Shown here: in pieces, positions 46,586 through 60,512 of the stretch
How the letters are laid out: each line of letters starts with the position of its first letter
How positions within the stretch are numbered: the first letter of the stretch is position 1
Position numbers and translations under genes: made by a program
Source of the DNA: Candidatus Aenigmatarchaeota archaeon
GTDB taxonomy: Archaea; Aenigmatarchaeota; Aenigmatarchaeia; CG10238-14; SCSR01
Length of the DNA: 64,000 nucleotides
Reading direction: 5' to 3'
NCBI GenBank assembly: GCA_038998335.1
Contig: JAVZHQ010000001.1
Span: 594,165 to 658,164, forward strand
Notes under the pieces: model-generated
Database searches by the model: none
Told to the model about the DNA's origin: nothing
What the model saw: only the letters and a program-made list of their open reading frames with translations

Positions 46586-46871
46586 GCAGGAGGCTAGGTC
46601 GCGGAGCTAGGCCTTCCGTGCTGCTGAAAAAGCAGTGGCAAATGGTCTACATGGCCGACCGAAGCCTGAGGGCGGTATAAGCTTACAAAAAGGTCCAAGC
46701 TTCCGACTGAGAAGCCTCGCCTTTCAGGGTGGGTAGCTTAACGAAACCGAGGAGGTCCGGAAGGAAGCACTCGTAAGTTAAGCTGTCTCATGCTTGAAAG
46801 ATACGGGGTGGAGAAGGAAGTTTGGAGCAACCTTTTTGTAAGCTTATATCCACCAAGGGCGTGCCTCCTGC
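46586..46871 (+). ncRNA. Archaeal signal recognition particle RNA (7S/SRP RNA)
   Basis: A GC-rich ~286-nt island in an AT-rich intergenic region. The 5' GCAGGAGGC and 3' GCCUCCUGC ends are complementary. It contains the conserved helix-8 motif GGUCCGGAAGGAAGCA. Confidence 0.85.
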
Positions 46872-50270: not shown

Positions 50271-50341
50271 GGGCCTGTAGTCTAACGGTAGGACGCCACC
50301 CTCACACGGTGGAGAAAGGAGTTCGACTCTCCTCAGGCCCA
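50271..50341 (+). tRNA. tRNA-Val (anticodon CAC), no intron, CCA not encoded
   Basis: Hand-folded cloverleaf: GGGCCUG UA GUCU AACGGUA GGAC G CCACC CUCACAC GGUGG AGAA AGGAG UUCGACU CUCCU CAGGCCC A. Confidence 0.85.
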
Positions 50342-50410
50342 CTTTTCTTCCATTTAAACCGGAGAATATAGAATAGACTTCTAACAATAATCACATAAGA
50401 TTAAGAAAAA

Positions 50411-55382: not shown

Positions 55383-55949
55383 CTAAGGTGTGACTCTTGA
55401 TAAAGAATAATAAGTTACATCTCCTTCCTTATCTACAACAGCCCACCACATAGTAGCTCTTATGTTGTGTGCAAGCCTAACTGCACGAGACATTTCTGGT
55501 AATGAAAAAGCAGCTTCCTCAGCAACTGCATGAACTATTGCTTTTGTATGCTCATGAGGTGCTTTTGGTCCTCTCTTCAGTTTAACTCCTCTTTCATAAA
55601 GTCTAAAGTGAGCACCAAACTTGAAACCAGTTTTAACAAGATAACCTCTATTCCTTAAGTCCCGATAAACTATAAATTGTGGATGAAATTGGTTAACATT
55701 TTTTGTTCCTATTTCTATTAATTCAGAAAGTTCGATTTTTCTTTTTTTATCATTTTCTTTAACAAAAACTCTAATCTTTCCCTTTTCAAGTAAGTAAGCA
55801 GCCTCTACCAAATCCAACTCAAGTCTGTTTGGGTTTTCTTCTGGTAACGGTTTACCATAACCAGAATCATCGTAAAGAATTACTGCTTCAGGATCCCAAA
55901 TTATTACTCTATTTTCTAATAGTTCACCTTCCCAAACTTTTTCGCTCAT
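55383..55949 (-). CDS. endA: tRNA-splicing endonuclease subunit (EndA family, 188 aa)
   Basis: VYRDLRNRGYLVKTGFKFGAHFRLYERG...HEHTKAIVHAV...RLAHNIRATMWWAVVDKEGDVTYYSL is collinear with the Methanocaldococcus EndA C-terminal domain. Confidence 0.88.
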   Translation of the reverse strand: MSEKVWEGELLENRVIIWDPEAVILYDDSGYGKPLPEENPNRLELDLVEAAYLLEKGKIRVFVKENDKKRKIELSELIEIGTKNVNQFHPQFIVYRDLRNRGYLVKTGFKFGAHFRLYERGVKLKRGPKAPHEHTKAIVHAVAEEAAFSLPEMSRAVRLAHNIRATMWWAVVDKEGDVTYYSLSRVTP

Positions 55950-56663: not shown

Positions 56664-56766
56664 TGGGACAGGAGGGATTTGAACCCTCGACACACCGGTA
56701 ACCGCTTAGTTCTTCAGCCGGTTGCTCTCCCGGGCTGAGCTTACAGCACATTAGTGATACTGTCCC
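56664..56766 (-). tRNA. tRNA-Phe (anticodon GAA) with two introns: 17 nt at 9/10 (56741-56757) and 12 nt at 37/38 (56699-56710)
   Basis: Minus-strand read: GGGACAG UA [UCACUAAUGUGCUGUAA] GCUC AGCCCGGGA GAGC A ACCGG CUGAAG[AACUAAGCGGUU]A CCGGU GUGUC GAGGG UUCAAAU CCCUC CUGUCCC A. The mature form would be 74 nt. Confidence 0.8.
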
Positions 56767-57538
56767 TACGACTGTCCCATTTCCTACATAATAAAATGGT
56801 TTCTAATTTATTTTGCTTGTTTAGATTTTGAAATCCTATCTCCTCTTTAAAATTAATTAATGAATTTAACCTTTTAATACGTAACCTTATTCCACAAGTT
56901 ATTACCCCATCCTTTCGTACATTGAGTGTGTTTGATATAAATATTGTTGATTTTATATTAAAGAATTTTTCAAGACCTTCTTTAATCTCATTTAAGAATT
57001 GGAAACCATTATCAAGTAAATTTTGGGATTTCCACATTTCCAAACCTATAAATGGGTTGTGTTTGCTGATGTCGACCGTGCCTTCACAATTGAAAACCAT
57101 CCTAACAAAACTTCTGAAACACTCTTTTTCGTTTTTAATCCAAGTTGGTACAGAAAACTCTTGCATTACCTTACAACCTTTTGGAACCCCTACTAAATGA
57201 AGTACTCTACTCAACAATTTACAATTCACGCCAAAATTGAAAGTTTTTCCAAATTTGTTTCCCTTACAAGGCCTCACTCTTCCTTTGATACCGAACAAAT
57301 TAAAAATTTCATTTCCAAATATTTCTAACTCTTGGAGATCTTTTGAAGTAAAATCAAATCTCCATTTAGGTTCACCTTGGAGATGCCCATCACACATCAA
57401 GGCTGCAACTATAGATGCTAGTTGTGGAGAAGAACGAACAGGAAACCAATTGCTATGTAAATTAATTGAATTTATTGCATGATCTCTCGATTTGAATAAC
57501 TTTATTACATCTTCTTCAGTTACTAAAATCTCACTCAT
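56741..57538 (-). CDS. Double-motif LAGLIDADG homing-endonuclease-like protein
   Basis: Motif 1 LASIVAALMCDGHL and motif 2 FVRMVFNCEGTV are about 100 aa apart. ATG at 57538 (the track start 57547 is GTG). The stop codon (56741-56743) is the last 3 nt of tRNA-Phe intron 1. Confidence 0.7.
   Translation of the reverse strand: MSEILVTEEDVIKLFKSRDHAINSINLHSNWFPVRSSPQLASIVAALMCDGHLQGEPKWRFDFTSKDLQELEIFGNEIFNLFGIKGRVRPCKGNKFGKTFNFGVNCKLLSRVLHLVGVPKGCKVMQEFSVPTWIKNEKECFRSFVRMVFNCEGTVDISKHNPFIGLEMWKSQNLLDNGFQFLNEIKEGLEKFFNIKSTIFISNTLNVRKDGVITCGIRLRIKRLNSLINFKEEIGFQNLNKQNKLETILLCRKWDSRRDSITNVL
56788..56797 (-). promoter_or_regulatory. TATA-box-like element for tRNA-Phe, embedded in the 3' end of the LAGLIDADG ORF
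   Basis: Minus-strand ATTTTATTAT spans -31 to -22 relative to the tRNA 5' end (56766). Confidence 0.35.
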
Positions 57539-57638
57539 TTTTAACACAAAATAAATAAGAGATAGCCATTTATTTATCTTTCGAAAGTTTAGTTCCGGTA
57601 AGTTCTTCTTTTAAGAACTTAGAATCTCTACAAACTAT

Positions 57639-59674: not shown

Positions 59675-59761
59675 CGCCCTCGCTGGGATTTGAACCCAGG
59701 ACCTACCGGTTAACAGCCGGGTGCTCTACCACTGAGCTTTCCTCGTAATTACTACGAGGGC
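59675..59761 (-). tRNA. tRNA-Asn (anticodon GUU) with a 15-nt non-canonical intron at 8/9-9/10 (about 59738-59752)
   Basis: Minus-strand read: GCCCUCG UA [GUAAUUACGAGGAAA] GCUC AGUGGUA GAGC A CCCGG CUGUUAA CCGGU AGGUC CUGGG UUCAAAU CCCAG CGAGGGC G. The mature form would be 72 nt. Confidence 0.75.
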
Positions 59762-60512
59762 TGCGAGGGCTTAATATATTTTTTAACAACTTGTTTTCAT
59801 CAATTAAATATTCTTCTATACTTTTATAGAATTTCCTTAAATTATTAGGCGTTATAACAAAAACTTTATAACCTCTTTGTTGTAAATCCTTTATCTTCTT
59901 TTTTAATTTCATAGCTTTATCAAAACCTTTCCACATGCTACATTCTACAATAAGGTTACCAACCTTGAAATCTGGGAAATAATATTTTTTATTGACATTT
60001 ATACAAGGTTCGTATTGATAATTTATTCCAAATTGAAATAATGTATCAGCAATTTTCTTTTCTAAAGTATTTCTGACGAGTTCACCACGTTTGGTTTTAA
60101 ATTTGTAGCTTCCAATCTTCTTAAACCGTTCATATTGCTCTAAGAAATATTTTTCACCTAATTCTTTTCTAAGTTTTTTATGTAACCTGCTAGAAGCTTT
60201 TTTCATCTTAATTAGATTTTTTCTGAATGTTTTGCTTCTAACCTTCTTTAAGTAGCTGGCTTTACCACCAATCCTTTGTTTCCAGTTTTTATCTAACCGT
60301 TTTTGAATAATTTGCACGATATCAACTTCTTCTAAACCTAAAAATTTCATGAGTTTGTTAAGAACATATCGAGAAATAGGTCTACCTTTATGTTTATAAT
60401 AATATATTGCAGATTTCACTACATTTAAGGTTTTTGCCAACTTTCTTTCACTACCAGCCTTTTTTATGGCCATGTTAATTATGTTTTTCTGATCTTTTAA
60501 TTTAAAATACAT
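59703..60512 (-). CDS. HTH plus putative restriction-endonuclease-like (PD-(D/E)xK?) protein immediately upstream of, and reading into, tRNA-Asn
   Basis: N-terminal ERKLAKTLNVVKSAIYYYKHKG is HTH-like. C-terminal GELVRNTLEKKIADTLFQFGINYQYEP...YYFPDFKVGNLIVECSMWKG is nuclease-like by eye. The last ~60 nt of the ORF are tRNA-Asn sequence (..SPRSPRSNYEESSVVEHPAVNR), so the true C-terminus is uncertain. Confidence 0.55.
   Translation of the reverse strand: MYFKLKDQKNIINMAIKKAGSERKLAKTLNVVKSAIYYYKHKGRPISRYVLNKLMKFLGLEEVDIVQIIQKRLDKNWKQRIGGKASYLKKVRSKTFRKNLIKMKKASSRLHKKLRKELGEKYFLEQYERFKKIGSYKFKTKRGELVRNTLEKKIADTLFQFGINYQYEPCINVNKKYYFPDFKVGNLIVECSMWKGFDKAMKLKKKIKDLQQRGYKVFVITPNNLRKFYKSIEEYLIDENKLLKNILSPRSPRSNYEESSVVEHPAVNR

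What the first reader, a model, noticed from the sequence alone, without database searches (positions are those of the whole stretch)
56664..57547. tRNA-Phe with a textbook BHB mini-intron at position 9/10 that contains the stop codon of an upstream LAGLIDADG homing-endonuclease gene
Removing 17 nt (56741-56757) and 12 nt (56699-56710) from the minus-strand sequence yields a perfect 74-nt tRNA-Phe(GAA) with G37.

The 17-nt insert with its flanks folds as GGG-ACAG-[UAU]-CAC-UAAU-GUG-CUGU-[AAG]-CUC:
- a 3-bp outer helix (one G-U pair)
- a 4-bp central helix
- two 3-nt bulges on opposite strands
- a 3-bp inner helix with a tetraloop

Cutting after the second bulge nucleotide on each side joins ..ACAG-UA to GCUC.., which gives exactly U8-A9-G10. 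For the anticodon-loop intron only a relaxed BHB can be drawn, with 3 of 4 central pairs.

A 266-aa double-LAGLIDADG ORF on the same strand ends with ..AUC ACU AAU GUG CUG UAA. Its last 26 nt are tRNA exon 1 plus the mini-intron. The exon-1 octamer GGGACAGU occurs twice in tandem (56759-56766 and 56771-56778).

LAGLIDADG genes are known inside archaeal rRNA BHB introns. A homing-endonuclease gene physically merged with a tRNA BHB intron is, as far as I know, undescribed. It may be a decayed ORF-bearing tRNA intron in which exon 1 was re-created next to the 3' splice site, or a free-standing endonuclease gene parasitising the tRNA promoter region.
Basis: partly seen in the sequence, partly recalled or inferred. 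Interest (0 to 1): 0.75.

Follow-up and report, generated by a model that had tools for sequence, protein, structure and literature searches.

The report
Endonuclease gene beside intron-split tRNA-Phe
A real archaeal tRNA-Phe gene carrying two tiny protein-spliced introns lies directly behind a gene for a selfish DNA-cutting enzyme. About 100 related loci suggest that the extra intron near the start of the tRNA travels with that enzyme gene and may shield the tRNA gene from it, a pairing I could not find described for archaeal tRNA introns.

Summary
Window 56664-56766 (-) is a tRNA-Phe(GAA) gene. It has a 17-nt strict bulge-helix-bulge (BHB) intron at 9/10 and a 12-nt relaxed intron at 37/38. 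The upstream ORF (56741-57538) is a two-motif LAGLIDADG enzyme whose stop codon lies in the mini-intron, and the acceptor strand is duplicated in tandem.

The "merged / decayed ORF-bearing intron" reading is not supported. In relatives the ORF stops at different places inside or before the tRNA. In some lineages the gene is divergent from the tRNA.

The ORF belongs to a DPANN-wide family (about 80 loci) that sits next to tRNA-Phe in essentially every locus with enough flank, usually on its 5' side. Syntenic close relatives show three states:
- endonuclease plus intron;
- intron only;
- neither.

About 38 of about 49 endonuclease-linked tRNA-Phe genes are interrupted within their first 14 nt (at 3/4, 4/5, 9/10 or 13/14). 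All those scored show canonical BHB geometry and compensatory changes.

A second, unrelated nuclease-like family shows the same arrangement with tRNA-Asn, 3 kb away in the window.

Best reading: a free-standing, tRNA-gene-specific homing endonuclease, with a BHB mini-intron that interrupts its presumed target. This would be an archaeal analogue of phage "collaborative homing". Cleavage specificity is untested.

The parts
56664..56766 (-). tRNA-Phe(GAA) gene, three exons and two introns
   Evidence: ARAGORN on the spliced sequence gives a 74-nt tRNA-Phe. Rfam tRNA scores 30.9 bits on the unspliced DNA. Orthologous genes are found in about 60 related loci.
56758..56766 (-). Exon 1, GGGACAGUA (tRNA positions 1-9; 'copy B')
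   Evidence: Pairs 7/7 with the 3' strand CUGUCCC. Its ACAG forms the BHB central helix.
56741..56757 (-). 17-nt BHB mini-intron at position 9/10, UCACUAAUGUGCUGUAA. It contains the ORF's UAA stop (56743-56741).
   Evidence: Strict hBHBh' geometry, 4/3/3. In relatives the exon/intron pairs change together, ACAG/CUGU to ACGG/CCGU and AAGG/CCUU. The intron is absent from three endonuclease-less syntenic alleles.
56711..56740 (-). Exon 2 (positions 10-37: D arm, anticodon stem 5' strand, anticodon GAA, G37)
56699..56710 (-). 12-nt intron at the canonical 37/38 position (the boundary can slide by 1 nt because of flanking A residues); relaxed BHB
   Evidence: ARAGORN calls it as an anticodon-loop intron. 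It has 3 of 4 central pairs and no inner helix (read). The related allele L095 has an 11-nt intron at the same place.
56664..56698 (-). Exon 3 (positions 38-73)
56771..56778 (-). 'Copy A': tandem duplicate of acceptor 5' strand plus U8 (GGGACAGU), 4 nt upstream of exon 1
   Evidence: Present in 7 of 10 non-redundant 9/10-intron alleles. Found in 0 of 80 control windows and in 0 of 7 uninterrupted alleles. It covaries with the 3' strand in L033. It is kept in the endonuclease-less, intron-bearing allele L096. With it as a leader, the RNAfold minimum-free-energy structure frees exon 1 to pair with the intron.
56741..57538 (-). Free-standing two-motif LAGLIDADG endonuclease gene (265 aa from ATG 57538; GTG 57547 is an alternative start). 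The conserved domain ends at about residue 250 and the tail is read-through into the tRNA.
   Evidence: Pfam LAGLIDADG_3. Alignment A1 has invariant D53 and E155. AF2 pLDDT is 93.4. Foldseek best matches are PI-PfuI, I-Tsp061I, I-DmoI and I-SceI. The Asp and Glu are kept in all 67 ORFs of at least 180 aa.
56767..57636 (-). Approximate extent of the DNA that is present here but absent from empty-site alleles (ORF, its upstream region, copy A, spacer), in addition to the 17-nt intron
   Evidence: blastn of L099 against the window: the glycosyltransferase (GT2) gene aligns up to 57637 and the tRNA aligns from 56741. That is 33 bp in L099 against 896 bp here.
55383..55949 (-). tRNA-splicing endonuclease EndA (188 aa, N- and C-terminal domains), the enzyme expected to excise both introns
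   Evidence: Pfam tRNA_int_endo 94 bits and tRNA_int_endo_N 63 bits. It is syntenic in relatives.
59675..59770 (-). Second instance: tRNA-Asn(GUU) with a 15-nt strict BHB intron at 8/9 (59739-59753) and a tandem copy of the acceptor strand (59762-59770)
   Evidence: Rfam tRNA 48.9 bits, model positions 9-63 only. Sequence. BHB score 4/3/2.
59703..60512 (-). Second nuclease-like ORF (HTH plus PD-(D/E)XK-like domain), reading into tRNA-Asn
   Evidence: 81 homologues in DPANN. Alignment A3 has invariant E168, D181 and E190. AF2 pLDDT is 91.9. Foldseek matches the I-Bth0305I homing endonuclease catalytic domain, AF1548 and T7 endonuclease I. The ORF abuts tRNA-Asn in 5 of 5 contexts examined.

Best explanation
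**What is shown**
- The 265-aa ORF is a free-standing (not intron-encoded) LAGLIDADG homing-endonuclease gene.
- Its family is dedicated to the tRNA-Phe(GAA) locus of DPANN archaea. It is inserted next to the tRNA gene, usually on its 5' side.
- It is present or absent between close, syntenic relatives, as a selfish mobile gene would be.
- The tRNA gene beside it is functional in form but split by small BHB introns.

**What is inferred**
- The intron in the first 10 nt (here 9/10) interrupts the enzyme's recognition or cleavage site in the tRNA gene, so the carrier chromosome is immune.
- The enzyme cuts uninterrupted tRNA-Phe alleles. Break repair then copies both the endonuclease gene and the intron. 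This would be an archaeal, BHB-intron version of phage "collaborative homing".
- After transcription, EndA (encoded 0.7 kb downstream) and the tRNA ligase remove the intron, so the tRNA is unharmed.
- The BHB needs the acceptor 5' strand (ACAG) to pair with the intron (CUGU) instead of with the 3' acceptor strand. The tandem upstream copy of the acceptor strand (copy A) may act as a stand-in partner for the 3' strand in a leader-containing precursor, which would free exon 1 for the BHB.

**What is incidental**
- The overlap of the ORF with the tRNA, and the stop codon inside the intron, are consequences of tight packing.
For: **(1) Enzyme**
- LAGLIDADG fold with both motifs.
- The putative catalytic Asp and Glu are kept in all 67 ORFs of at least 180 aa; only one ORF (L070) is clearly broken.

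**(2) Specific linkage**
- 82 related loci come from Aenigmat-, Woese-, Nano-, Iain- and Micrarchaeota.
- Essentially every locus with enough flank has tRNA-Phe(GAA) within about 300 nt: tandem, divergent (13 or more loci) or, rarely, convergent.
- The wider gene context differs between lineages: GT2/EndA here, 23S rRNA and RNase P RNA in others, tRNA-Lys pairs in others.

**(3) Presence/absence at one syntenic site**
- GT2-[ORF]-tRNA-Phe-(M54)-EndA occurs with the ORF in the window and in L001, L003 and L005.
- It occurs without the ORF in L094, L095, L096-98 and L099-101, whose EndA is 79-81% identical.
- The difference is a clean indel of about 860 bp.

**(4) Co-occurrence with the 5' intron**
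- In this syntenic clade, all 11 alleles with an intact endonuclease are interrupted in positions 4-10.
- Of 4 endonuclease-less alleles, 3 are uninterrupted.
- The one allele with a broken endonuclease ORF (L070) is uninterrupted.
- Family-wide, about 38 of about 49 non-redundant linked tRNA-Phe genes are interrupted within the first 14 nt: 9/10 (9 loci), 3/4 (about 6), 4/5 (about 22), 13/14 (1).
- Neighbouring tRNA-Lys, -Thr and -Val genes are not interrupted there.

**(5) The inserts are real BHB introns**
- 90% of the 10 geometry-defined pairs are canonical over 30 non-redundant introns. This falls to 31-42% when the 3' side is slid by 1-3 nt.
- Compensatory changes occur in central and inner helices.

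**(6) The intron goes with the endonuclease in either orientation**
- Divergent loci also carry 3/4 or 4/5 introns. This argues for a DNA-level rather than a co-transcription role.

**(7) The expected "homing-cycle" intermediate exists**
- L096-98 have no endonuclease gene but keep an intron homologous to that of L005, plus copy A.

**(8) Independent replication**
- An unrelated HTH + PD-(D/E)XK-like family abuts tRNA-Asn in 5 of 5 contexts examined.
- Those tRNA-Asn genes have 8/9 or D-loop introns. Copy A is present in the window and in L088.

**(9) Copy A**
- Leaders of 3/4 and 4/5 alleles (for example CTGAGCTCAAT) are complementary to the D-arm 5' half and form the BHB outer helix.
Against: - No cleavage data exist. 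The target site is inferred only from where the introns sit.
- Eleven endonuclease-linked tRNA-Phe genes are uninterrupted (L017/59, L046, L055, L056, L058, L064, L070, L071, L075, L081, L087). Eight of these have a non-G at position 3, which could be resistance by substitution, but that is an after-the-fact reading.
- These genomes also carry many other non-canonical introns in the same tRNA (30/31, about 43/44, T loop) that are unrelated to the endonuclease. A generally high intron load could inflate the association.
- Intron position is largely clade-specific in the endonuclease tree, so the counts are not independent events.
- Only four endonuclease-less alleles were sampled.
- LAGLIDADG proteins can be maturases or DNA-binding factors (bI3 maturase and WhiA are among the structural matches).
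- Whether copy A is transcribed is unknown. A TATA-like TTTTATTA at 56789-56796 would put the start near exon 1, downstream of copy A (read).
Confidence: 0.55

Rival explanations
1. Hitch-hiking without collaboration. The endonuclease homes to the flank of tRNA-Phe, using the conserved tRNA as target or homology arm. The 5' introns are merely part of the generally heavy, endonuclease-independent intron load of DPANN tRNA genes. Immunity would come from the insertion itself or from point changes.
For: - Other introns in the same tRNA occur with and without the endonuclease.
- Eleven linked tRNA genes are uninterrupted.
- One endonuclease-less allele has the intron.
- DPANN alpha4-type EndA lineages are already known for strongly disrupted tRNA genes (PMC5829648).
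Against: - In the syntenic clade, interruption of positions 4-10 tracks the intact endonuclease: 11 of 11 against 1 of 4.
- Introns cluster in the first 10-14 nt at three different positions in different endonuclease clades.
- The same pattern recurs with an unrelated nuclease family at tRNA-Asn.
- Flanking tRNA-Lys, -Thr and -Val genes lack such introns.
Confidence: 0.2
2. Intron creation by the endonuclease. The 5' introns and the duplicated acceptor strand are scars of imprecise repair of endonuclease-made breaks (duplication or fold-back synthesis). They are tolerated because they happen to form a BHB. Protection is a by-product, not the reason they persist.
For: - Copy A and exon 1 form a short direct repeat right at the presumed break region.
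- The intron's 3' half is an inverted copy of exon 1 (ACAG...CUGU).
- Intron positions differ between endonuclease clades.
- A mobile-element-driven intron gain has been proposed for Caldiarchaeum tRNA-Thr (PMC3293823).
Against: - Strict BHB geometry with compensatory changes and conserved leaders shows long-term selection on the RNA structure.
- Introns of L096 and L005 are homologous, so they are inherited rather than repeatedly created.
- This explains origin, not maintenance, and is compatible with the main explanation.
Confidence: 0.12
3. Domesticated LAGLIDADG protein. It is a maturase- or chaperone-like or DNA-binding factor. It helps the awkward pre-tRNA-Phe adopt its BHB fold or regulates the tRNA gene, rather than acting as a selfish nuclease.
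For: - The family is intact and well conserved across phyla.
- Structural neighbours include the bI3 maturase and WhiA.
- The BHB competes with the acceptor stem, so help with folding is conceivable.
Against: - Both catalytic acidic residues are invariant, unlike typical pure maturases and WhiA (my own knowledge).
- The gene is absent from close relatives with the same synteny, including one that keeps the intron.
- Some carriers have no 5' intron.
- Sporadic distribution: about 27 protein clusters, against more than 960 EndA clusters at E below 1e-30 in the same database.
Confidence: 0.08
4. One reading: a decayed ORF-bearing tRNA intron in which exon 1 was re-created next to the 3' splice site.
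For: - The ORF overlaps exon 1 and the intron.
- Exon 1 is duplicated.
- LAGLIDADG genes do live inside archaeal rRNA BHB introns (PMC6125680; I-Tsp061I and I-DmoI).
Against: - There is no exon-1-like sequence or BHB half upstream of the ORF.
- Divergent and convergent arrangements in other lineages cannot derive from an intronic ORF.
- Copy A persists without the ORF.
- The ORF end point varies freely between relatives.
Confidence: 0.04

Closest known systems
Collaborative homing of a free-standing homing endonuclease and an ORF-less intron (cyanophage S-PM2 F-CphI with the psbA group I intron; Zeng, Bonocora & Shub 2009, as summarised in PMC6083498)
   Same: - The endonuclease gene lies outside but next to an intron-containing target gene.
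- The intron is proposed to prevent self-cleavage.
- Both would be co-inherited by break repair.
- There is presence/absence polymorphism.
   Different: - The intron here is a 12-45-nt protein-spliced BHB intron, not a self-splicing group I intron.
- The target is a tRNA gene of a cellular archaeal chromosome, not a phage protein gene.
- The enzyme is LAGLIDADG, not Endo VII-like.
- Protection and cleavage are untested here.
Phage T4 SegB, a free-standing GIY-YIG homing endonuclease in the tRNA gene cluster (PMC2330249)
   Same: A free-standing homing endonuclease gene embedded among tRNA genes and cutting a tRNA gene region of relatives that lack it.
   Different: - The setting is a phage, and the nuclease family differs.
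- No intron is involved.
- There is no one-enzyme-one-tRNA relation conserved across phyla.
Intron-encoded archaeal LAGLIDADG endonucleases of rRNA BHB introns (I-DmoI, I-Tsp061I, I-PorI and others)
   Same: - The fold is the same; these are among the structural matches.
- They share the archaeal host and an association with BHB introns spliced by EndA.
   Different: - Those ORFs lie inside large rRNA introns.
- Here the ORF lies outside a mini-intron of a tRNA gene, and can even be on the other strand.
Disrupted tRNA genes of DPANN, Thermoproteales and ARMAN (multiple non-canonical BHB introns; PMC5829648, PMC4390854)
   Same: - There are multiple small introns at non-canonical positions, including the acceptor stem.
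- EndA with an alpha-type subunit is present.
- Such tRNAs are missed by standard tRNA finders.
   Different: - Those descriptions do not link particular introns to an adjacent nuclease gene.
- None was found in the held literature.
Mobile-element models of tRNA gene disruption: Randau & Soll's protection hypothesis, and Sugahara et al. 2012 on Caldiarchaeum tRNA-Thr with a recombinase element (PMC4390854, PMC3293823)
   Same: - The idea that introns protect tRNA genes against mobile DNA.
- A mobile element on the 5' side, together with intron gain and a duplicated 5' tRNA fragment.
   Different: - The element there is an integrase/recombinase element of 1.8 kb, with the 5' fragment on its far side.
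- Here it is a single homing-endonuclease gene, and the duplicate sits between the ORF and the tRNA.

Membership tests
tRNA (Phe, GAA) | Cloverleaf with 7-bp acceptor stem, D, anticodon and T arms, and conserved U8, GG in the D loop and TTCAAAT in the T loop, after intron removal | tested here: met
   ARAGORN on the spliced sequence gives tRNA-Phe(gaa), 74 nt. Rfam RF00005 scores 30.9 bits on unspliced DNA.
tRNA (Phe, GAA) | Expressed, spliced and aminoacylated; the only or a needed tRNA-Phe of the genome | not testable with these tools
   No RNA data are available, and only a 64-kb window of a 76.7-kb contig is held.
Archaeal BHB intron | Two 3-nt bulges on opposite strands separated by a 4-bp helix and flanked by helices (hBHBh'), with cuts that give the correct mature sequence | tested here: met
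   The 9/10 intron scores 4/3/3 and splicing gives U8-A9-G10. Over 30 non-redundant relatives, 90% of pairs are canonical in register against 31-42% when slid, with compensatory changes. The 37/38 intron meets only the relaxed form (3 of 4 central pairs, no inner helix).
Archaeal BHB intron | Splicing endonuclease EndA encoded by the organism | tested here: met
   Window 55383-55949, Pfam tRNA_int_endo_N plus tRNA_int_endo.
Archaeal BHB intron | Excision and ligation observed (circular intron, mature junction) | not testable with these tools
   This needs RNA sequencing or RT-PCR.
LAGLIDADG homing endonuclease | Two LAGLIDADG helices, each ending in a catalytic acidic residue, in a pseudo-dimeric alpha-beta-beta-alpha-beta-beta-alpha fold | tested here: met
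   The motifs are ..LASIVAALMCDGHL.. and ..FVRMVFNCEGTV.., with D53 and E155 invariant. AF2 pLDDT is 93.4. The top 26 Foldseek matches are LAGLIDADG proteins. Pfam is marginal.
LAGLIDADG homing endonuclease | Site-specific double-strand cleavage of a long target that is lacking in the carrier allele | not testable with these tools
   This needs recombinant protein and substrates.
LAGLIDADG homing endonuclease | Sporadic presence/absence at a fixed genomic site | tested here: met
   Syntenic alleles occur with and without the ORF.
Intron-encoded homing endonuclease (ORF inside the intron) | ORF located between the two splice sites | tested here: not met
   Only the last 17 nt of the ORF lie in the intron; the other 781 nt lie upstream of exon 1. 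Relatives have the ORF ending elsewhere or on the other strand.
Collaborative homing (free-standing endonuclease plus protective intron) | Endonuclease gene adjacent to, not within, an intron-containing gene | tested here: met
Collaborative homing (free-standing endonuclease plus protective intron) | Endonuclease and intron co-occur; alleles lacking both exist | tested here: met
   In the syntenic clade, 11 of 11 alleles with an intact endonuclease are interrupted, and 3 of 4 endonuclease-less alleles are uninterrupted. Exceptions exist family-wide.
Collaborative homing (free-standing endonuclease plus protective intron) | The enzyme cuts the intron-less allele at or near the intron insertion site, and the intron blocks cutting | not testable with these tools
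   This is the decisive missing test.

The most novel reading that the evidence does not exclude
Non-canonical BHB introns in the 5' part of archaeal tRNA genes are gained and kept as immunity against tRNA-gene-specific free-standing homing endonucleases. At least two unrelated nuclease families would be involved (LAGLIDADG at tRNA-Phe, HTH-PD-(D/E)XK at tRNA-Asn), each locked to one tRNA across DPANN phyla. 5' leaders would have been reshaped (duplicated acceptor strand, anti-D-arm sequence) so that a strict BHB can still form. This would be direct genomic evidence for the long-standing idea that tRNA gene disruption protects against mobile DNA. It would also be the first case of "collaborative homing" between a protein-spliced intron and a nuclease gene.
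Probability: 0.45. Interest if true: 0.85.

Novelty: new variant of a known kind. Interest (0 to 1): 0.78.

Why it matters
Why archaeal tRNA genes are so often interrupted, and at such odd positions, has been debated for two decades. Protection against mobile elements is one proposal (Randau & Soll, cited in PMC4390854), but no concrete attacker-defence pairs have been described.

This locus and its roughly 100 relatives provide such a pair in testable form:
- a defined enzyme family;
- a defined tRNA target;
- natural alleles with endonuclease plus intron, with the intron only, and with neither.

It would also extend "collaborative homing" from self-splicing phage introns to protein-spliced archaeal introns. 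It suggests a route by which BHB introns spread without carrying their own ORF.

There are practical consequences too:
- It explains why tRNA-Phe and tRNA-Asn are missed in DPANN genome annotations.
- It offers new compact LAGLIDADG enzymes with a predictable target.

Tried and rejected

- Standard detection fails. ARAGORN, with or without -i, finds neither tRNA-Phe nor tRNA-Asn in the window. Rfam gives only marginal or partial matches.
- Sequence-only identification of the ORF is weak: Pfam 22.8 bits; PDB profile search E = 0.009 to an intein endonuclease domain. Structure prediction was needed.

**Readings considered and rejected**
- A large intron with exon 1 upstream of the ORF: no GGGACAG or BHB half lies upstream of 57538.
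- Copy A as the true exon 1. It can form a BHB (4/3/2), but that gives C9 and a poor inner helix, and in tRNA-Asn copy A has C8. Copy B is better in every relative.
- The stop codon in the intron as a functional feature: its position is not conserved.
- The promoter-parasitism reading: divergent loci exist.

**Technical dead ends**
- MAFFT alignment of filled against empty sites misplaced the GT2 end. blastn was used instead.
- My first T-arm/acceptor heuristic missed most relatives. It was replaced by a spliced alignment plus BHB scoring, and several loci still remained "unresolved" by script.
- The bacterial-type promoter/terminator scan was not used, because this is an archaeon. TATA-box positions were read by eye and are ambiguous in 34% G+C DNA.

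**Literature**
- Searches found no description of nuclease genes tied to tRNA BHB introns.
Full report
**1. Observation**

The window is 33.9% G+C. It matches at 99% a contig of a Candidatus Aenigmatarchaeota metagenome-assembled genome, JAWBTW010000004.1 (locus L006).

On the minus strand, 56766-56664 reads:

GGGACAGUA / UCACUAAUGUGCUGUAA / GCUCAGCCCGGGAGAGCAACCGGCUGAAGA / ACUAAGCGGUUA / CCGGUGUGUCGAGGGUUCAAAUCCCUCCUGUCCCA.

- With both inserts removed, ARAGORN returns a 74-nt tRNA-Phe(gaa) with perfect stems.
- With only the first insert removed, ARAGORN itself calls the 12-nt insert as an anticodon-loop intron.
- On the raw DNA, ARAGORN finds nothing here. Rfam tRNA reaches 30.9 bits against a threshold of 29.
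- The 17-nt insert has the full hBHBh' geometry: outer GGG/CUC, central ACAG/CUGU, bulges UA|U and AA|G, inner CAC/GUG.
- Such a strict motif occurs at a given position and length with a frequency of about 8e-5 in this window. Its occurrence exactly where it restores the cloverleaf is therefore not chance.
- The 37/38 intron has 3 of 4 central pairs and no inner helix, so it is a relaxed BHB.
- The ORF 56741-57538/57547 ends in UAA inside the mini-intron.
- GGGACAGU is present twice, 4 nt apart.

**2. The ORF is a LAGLIDADG enzyme**

- Pfam LAGLIDADG_3 is marginal: 22.8 against 22.5 bits.
- A PDB profile search gives only E = 0.009, to an intein endonuclease domain.
- Sixteen family members align with two LAGLIDADG-type motifs and invariant D53 and E155.
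- The AF2 model has pLDDT 93.4.
- Its 26 best PDB matches are all LAGLIDADG proteins: PI-PfuI, Tli VMA intein endonuclease, I-Tsp061I, I-DmoI, I-SceI, and also the bI3 maturase and WhiA.
- The Asp and Glu are kept in all 67 family ORFs of at least 180 aa. Only L070 is clearly broken.
- The conserved domain ends near residue 250. The tail beyond it is variable read-through.

**3. The ORF-tRNA pair in relatives**

- The protein has 27 clusters of homologues in the 5.8-billion-protein set.
- Pattern scans returned 24 loci from species genomes and 58 from metagenomes, labelled Aenigmat-, Woese-, Nano-, Iain- and Micrarchaeota.

*Position of tRNA-Phe*
- A spliced alignment against the mature tRNA shows tRNA-Phe(GAA) directly downstream in most loci.
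- Where it is not downstream, it lies 120-270 nt upstream and divergent (13 or more loci), or rarely convergent.
- In most loci the gene is therefore on the 5' flank of tRNA-Phe.
- The wider context differs between lineages: GT2 and EndA in the Aenigmatarchaeota-like clade, 23S rRNA plus RNase P RNA, or two tRNA-Lys genes, elsewhere.

*Where the ORF ends*
- The end point is not conserved: the mini-intron here, a 30/31 intron in L030, the anticodon stem in L033, U8-A9-A in L034 and L008, and before the tRNA in Woesearchaeota-type loci.
- The stop-in-intron is therefore incidental.
- In the Aenigmatarchaeota-like clade, however, the ORF never stops before the tRNA. I cannot explain this.

**4. 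The 5' introns**

Each tRNA-Phe was scored for an exon-1/exon-2 split that restores a 7/7 acceptor stem and has BHB geometry. Some loci were resolved by hand. The non-redundant counts are approximately:

| Position of interruption | Loci |
|---|---|
| 9/10 | 9 |
| 3/4 | about 6 |
| 4/5 | about 22 |
| 13/14 | 1 |
| Uninterrupted | 11 |

- Nearly all interrupted genes have 4/4 central pairs.
- Pooled over 30 non-redundant introns, 90% of the ten geometry-defined pairs are canonical. The figure is 31-42% when the 3' side is slid by 1-3 nt.
- Compensatory changes occur in the central helix (ACAG/CUGU, ACGG/CCGU, AAGG/CCUU) and in the inner helix.
- For 3/4 and 4/5 introns, the BHB is built partly from the 5' leader. 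For example...CTGAGCTCAAT|GGGA is complementary to the D-arm 5' half. A leader must therefore be transcribed in those lineages.

**5. Empty sites**

- EndA homologues at 74-96% identity are very numerous: more than 120 clusters listed and 966 at E below 1e-30. This is far more than the endonuclease clusters.
- Five EndA look-ups were made; four gave informative syntenic relatives, all lacking the endonuclease gene.
- L094, L095 and L099-101 have GT2-tRNA-Phe-(M54)-EndA with an uninterrupted 5' half and no duplicated acceptor strand (GGGACGGTAGCTCAACC..., GGGATGATAGCTCAGCC...).
- L096-98 lack the ORF but keep GGGACAGacggctGGGACAGTA[ataactgaggttactgtat]GCTC.
- blastn places the filled/empty difference between the end of GT2 (window 57637) and the tRNA body (56741). 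That is 896 bp here against 33 bp in L099.
- The L096 intron is homologous to that of the endonuclease-bearing L005.
- Three states therefore coexist among close relatives: endonuclease plus intron, intron only, and neither.
- Within this syntenic clade, all 11 alleles with an intact endonuclease are interrupted in positions 4-10. One of 4 endonuclease-less alleles is interrupted.
- My hand calculation of a one-sided exact test gives about 0.009. It is not corrected for relatedness.
- The one allele with a broken endonuclease ORF (L070) is uninterrupted.

**6. The duplicated acceptor strand (copy A)**

- A 7-mer able to pair 7/7 with the 3' acceptor strand lies within 45 nt upstream in 7 of 10 non-redundant 9/10-intron alleles.
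- It is found in 0 of 80 control windows and in 0 of 7 uninterrupted alleles.
- In L033, copy A (GGGGCGA) differs from exon 1 (GGGACGG), yet both pair fully with UCGUCCC.
- Copy A persists without the ORF in L096, so it belongs with the intron, not with the coding sequence.
- RNAfold of the precursor without a leader pairs exon 1 with the 3' strand, which leaves no BHB central helix. With copy A as a leader, copy A takes the 3' strand and exon 1 pairs with the intron.
- Two 9/10 alleles without copy A (L007, L022) instead have a leader, CTCCCGAT, complementary to the D-loop CGGGAG.
- I infer that leaders have been shaped to let the strict BHB form. Whether copy A is transcribed is unknown.

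**7. A second case in the same window**

- tRNA-Asn(GUU) at 59675-59761 (-) has a 15-nt strict BHB intron at 8/9 and a tandem copy of its acceptor strand. An upstream ORF reads into it.
- That ORF family has 81 homologues across DPANN.
- It has an N-terminal HTH domain. Its C-terminal domain has invariant E168, D181 (FPDF) and E190.
- The AF2 model (pLDDT 91.9) matches the I-Bth0305I homing-endonuclease catalytic domain, AF1548 and T7 endonuclease I. These matches are weak (E about 8e-3, probability 1.0).
- In four unrelated genomic contexts the ORF again abuts tRNA-Asn. Those genes carry an 8/9 intron plus copy A (L088) or a D-loop intron (L089-91).
- The only other tRNA in the window, tRNA-Val, has neither an intron nor a nuclease neighbour.

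**8. Interpretation**

*Shown*
- A real split tRNA-Phe.
- A real LAGLIDADG gene that is free-standing, specific to the tRNA-Phe locus, and polymorphic in presence.
- A 5' BHB intron that largely travels with it.

*Inferred*
- The intron interrupts the enzyme's target and gives self-immunity.
- Both move together by break repair, as in "collaborative homing" as defined for F-CphI and psbA (PMC6083498).
- A free-standing endonuclease in a tRNA gene region is also known from T4 SegB (PMC2330249).

*Against the inference*
- Cleavage is untested.
- Eleven carriers are uninterrupted. Eight of these have a non-G at position 3, which may or may not be resistance by substitution.
- These lineages have a generally high intron load (PMC5829648).
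- Intron positions are clade-specific, so the counts are not independent.

The rival explanations are listed separately: hitch-hiking, repair scars, domesticated maturase, and decayed intronic ORF.

**9. Novelty**

- Multiple non-canonical BHB introns in DPANN tRNAs are known (PMC5829648). So are LAGLIDADG genes inside archaeal rRNA introns (PMC6125680).
- Protection against mobile DNA has been proposed for disrupted tRNA genes (PMC4390854). A recombinase element has been linked to intron gain in Caldiarchaeum (PMC3293823).
- I found no description of nuclease genes tied to specific tRNA genes and their 5' BHB introns.
- I rate this as a new variant of a known kind.

Noticed in passing
window 59675-60512 (-): tRNA-Asn(GUU) has a 15-nt strict BHB intron at 8/9 (59739-59753) and a tandem copy of the acceptor strand (59762-59770). 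An upstream HTH + PD-(D/E)XK-like ORF reads into it. The ORF family (81 homologues) abuts tRNA-Asn in every context examined.
   Followed up: yes
L003 1256-2125 (same contig as L033, Ga0315280_10000008): tRNA-Asn without a 5' intron is followed by a free-standing LAGLIDADG_3 ORF (1451-2107). After that comes an orphan TCGCGTCGAGGGCG, the 3' end of a different tRNA-Asn allele. A TnpB-like fragment lies upstream. It looks like a cassette that replaced most of an older tRNA-Asn.
   Followed up: partly
window 55383-55949 (-) and syntenic loci: The tRNA-splicing endonuclease gene EndA lies 0.2-1.7 kb downstream of the multi-intron tRNA-Phe throughout this Aenigmatarchaeota clade. It is a 188-aa single alpha-type subunit.
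   Followed up: partly
L001, L003, L005, L094, L099 (tRNA-Phe): Other introns of the same tRNA differ by lineage and are independent of the endonuclease. Examples are 17 nt at about 30/31, about 18 nt at about 43/44, and about 25 nt in the T loop (about 59/60). Micrarchaeota-type alleles (L025, L074) have four introns.
   Followed up: partly
window 56741-56800 and L007, L008, L030-L034: In the Aenigmatarchaeota-like clade the endonuclease ORF never has its own stop before the tRNA. In 8 of 8 lineages it terminates inside the tRNA gene, at different positions. No explanation was found.
   Followed up: partly
L013, L016, L019, L038, L050, L051: In Woese- and Nanoarchaeota-type loci the endonuclease gene is preceded by the 3' end of the 23S rRNA gene and by the RNase P RNA gene. 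L038 has a group I intron (RF00028, 82 bits) in its 23S rRNA.
   Followed up: no
L020 3260-3360: There is a 41-nt tandem duplication of the leader, GGG and the start of the 3/4 intron upstream of tRNA-Phe. It is absent from the near-identical L066, L067 and L069.
   Followed up: no
L002 1-433: The Top6B gene of a close relative carries an intein with a LAGLIDADG_3 domain. These lineages are rich in homing endonucleases.
   Followed up: no
L017/59, L046, L055, L058, L071, L075, L081, L087: Endonuclease-linked tRNA-Phe genes without a 5' intron mostly start GGA or GGC instead of the GGG(A/G) seen in all interrupted alleles. The change is at position 3, where sister lineages carry the 3/4 or 4/5 intron.
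   Followed up: partly
window 46587-46870 (+) and 50271-50342 (+): Archaeal SRP RNA (130.9 bits) is present here. So is an uninterrupted tRNA-Val(CAC) whose upstream neighbour is a methyltransferase, which served as an in-window control.
   Followed up: yes
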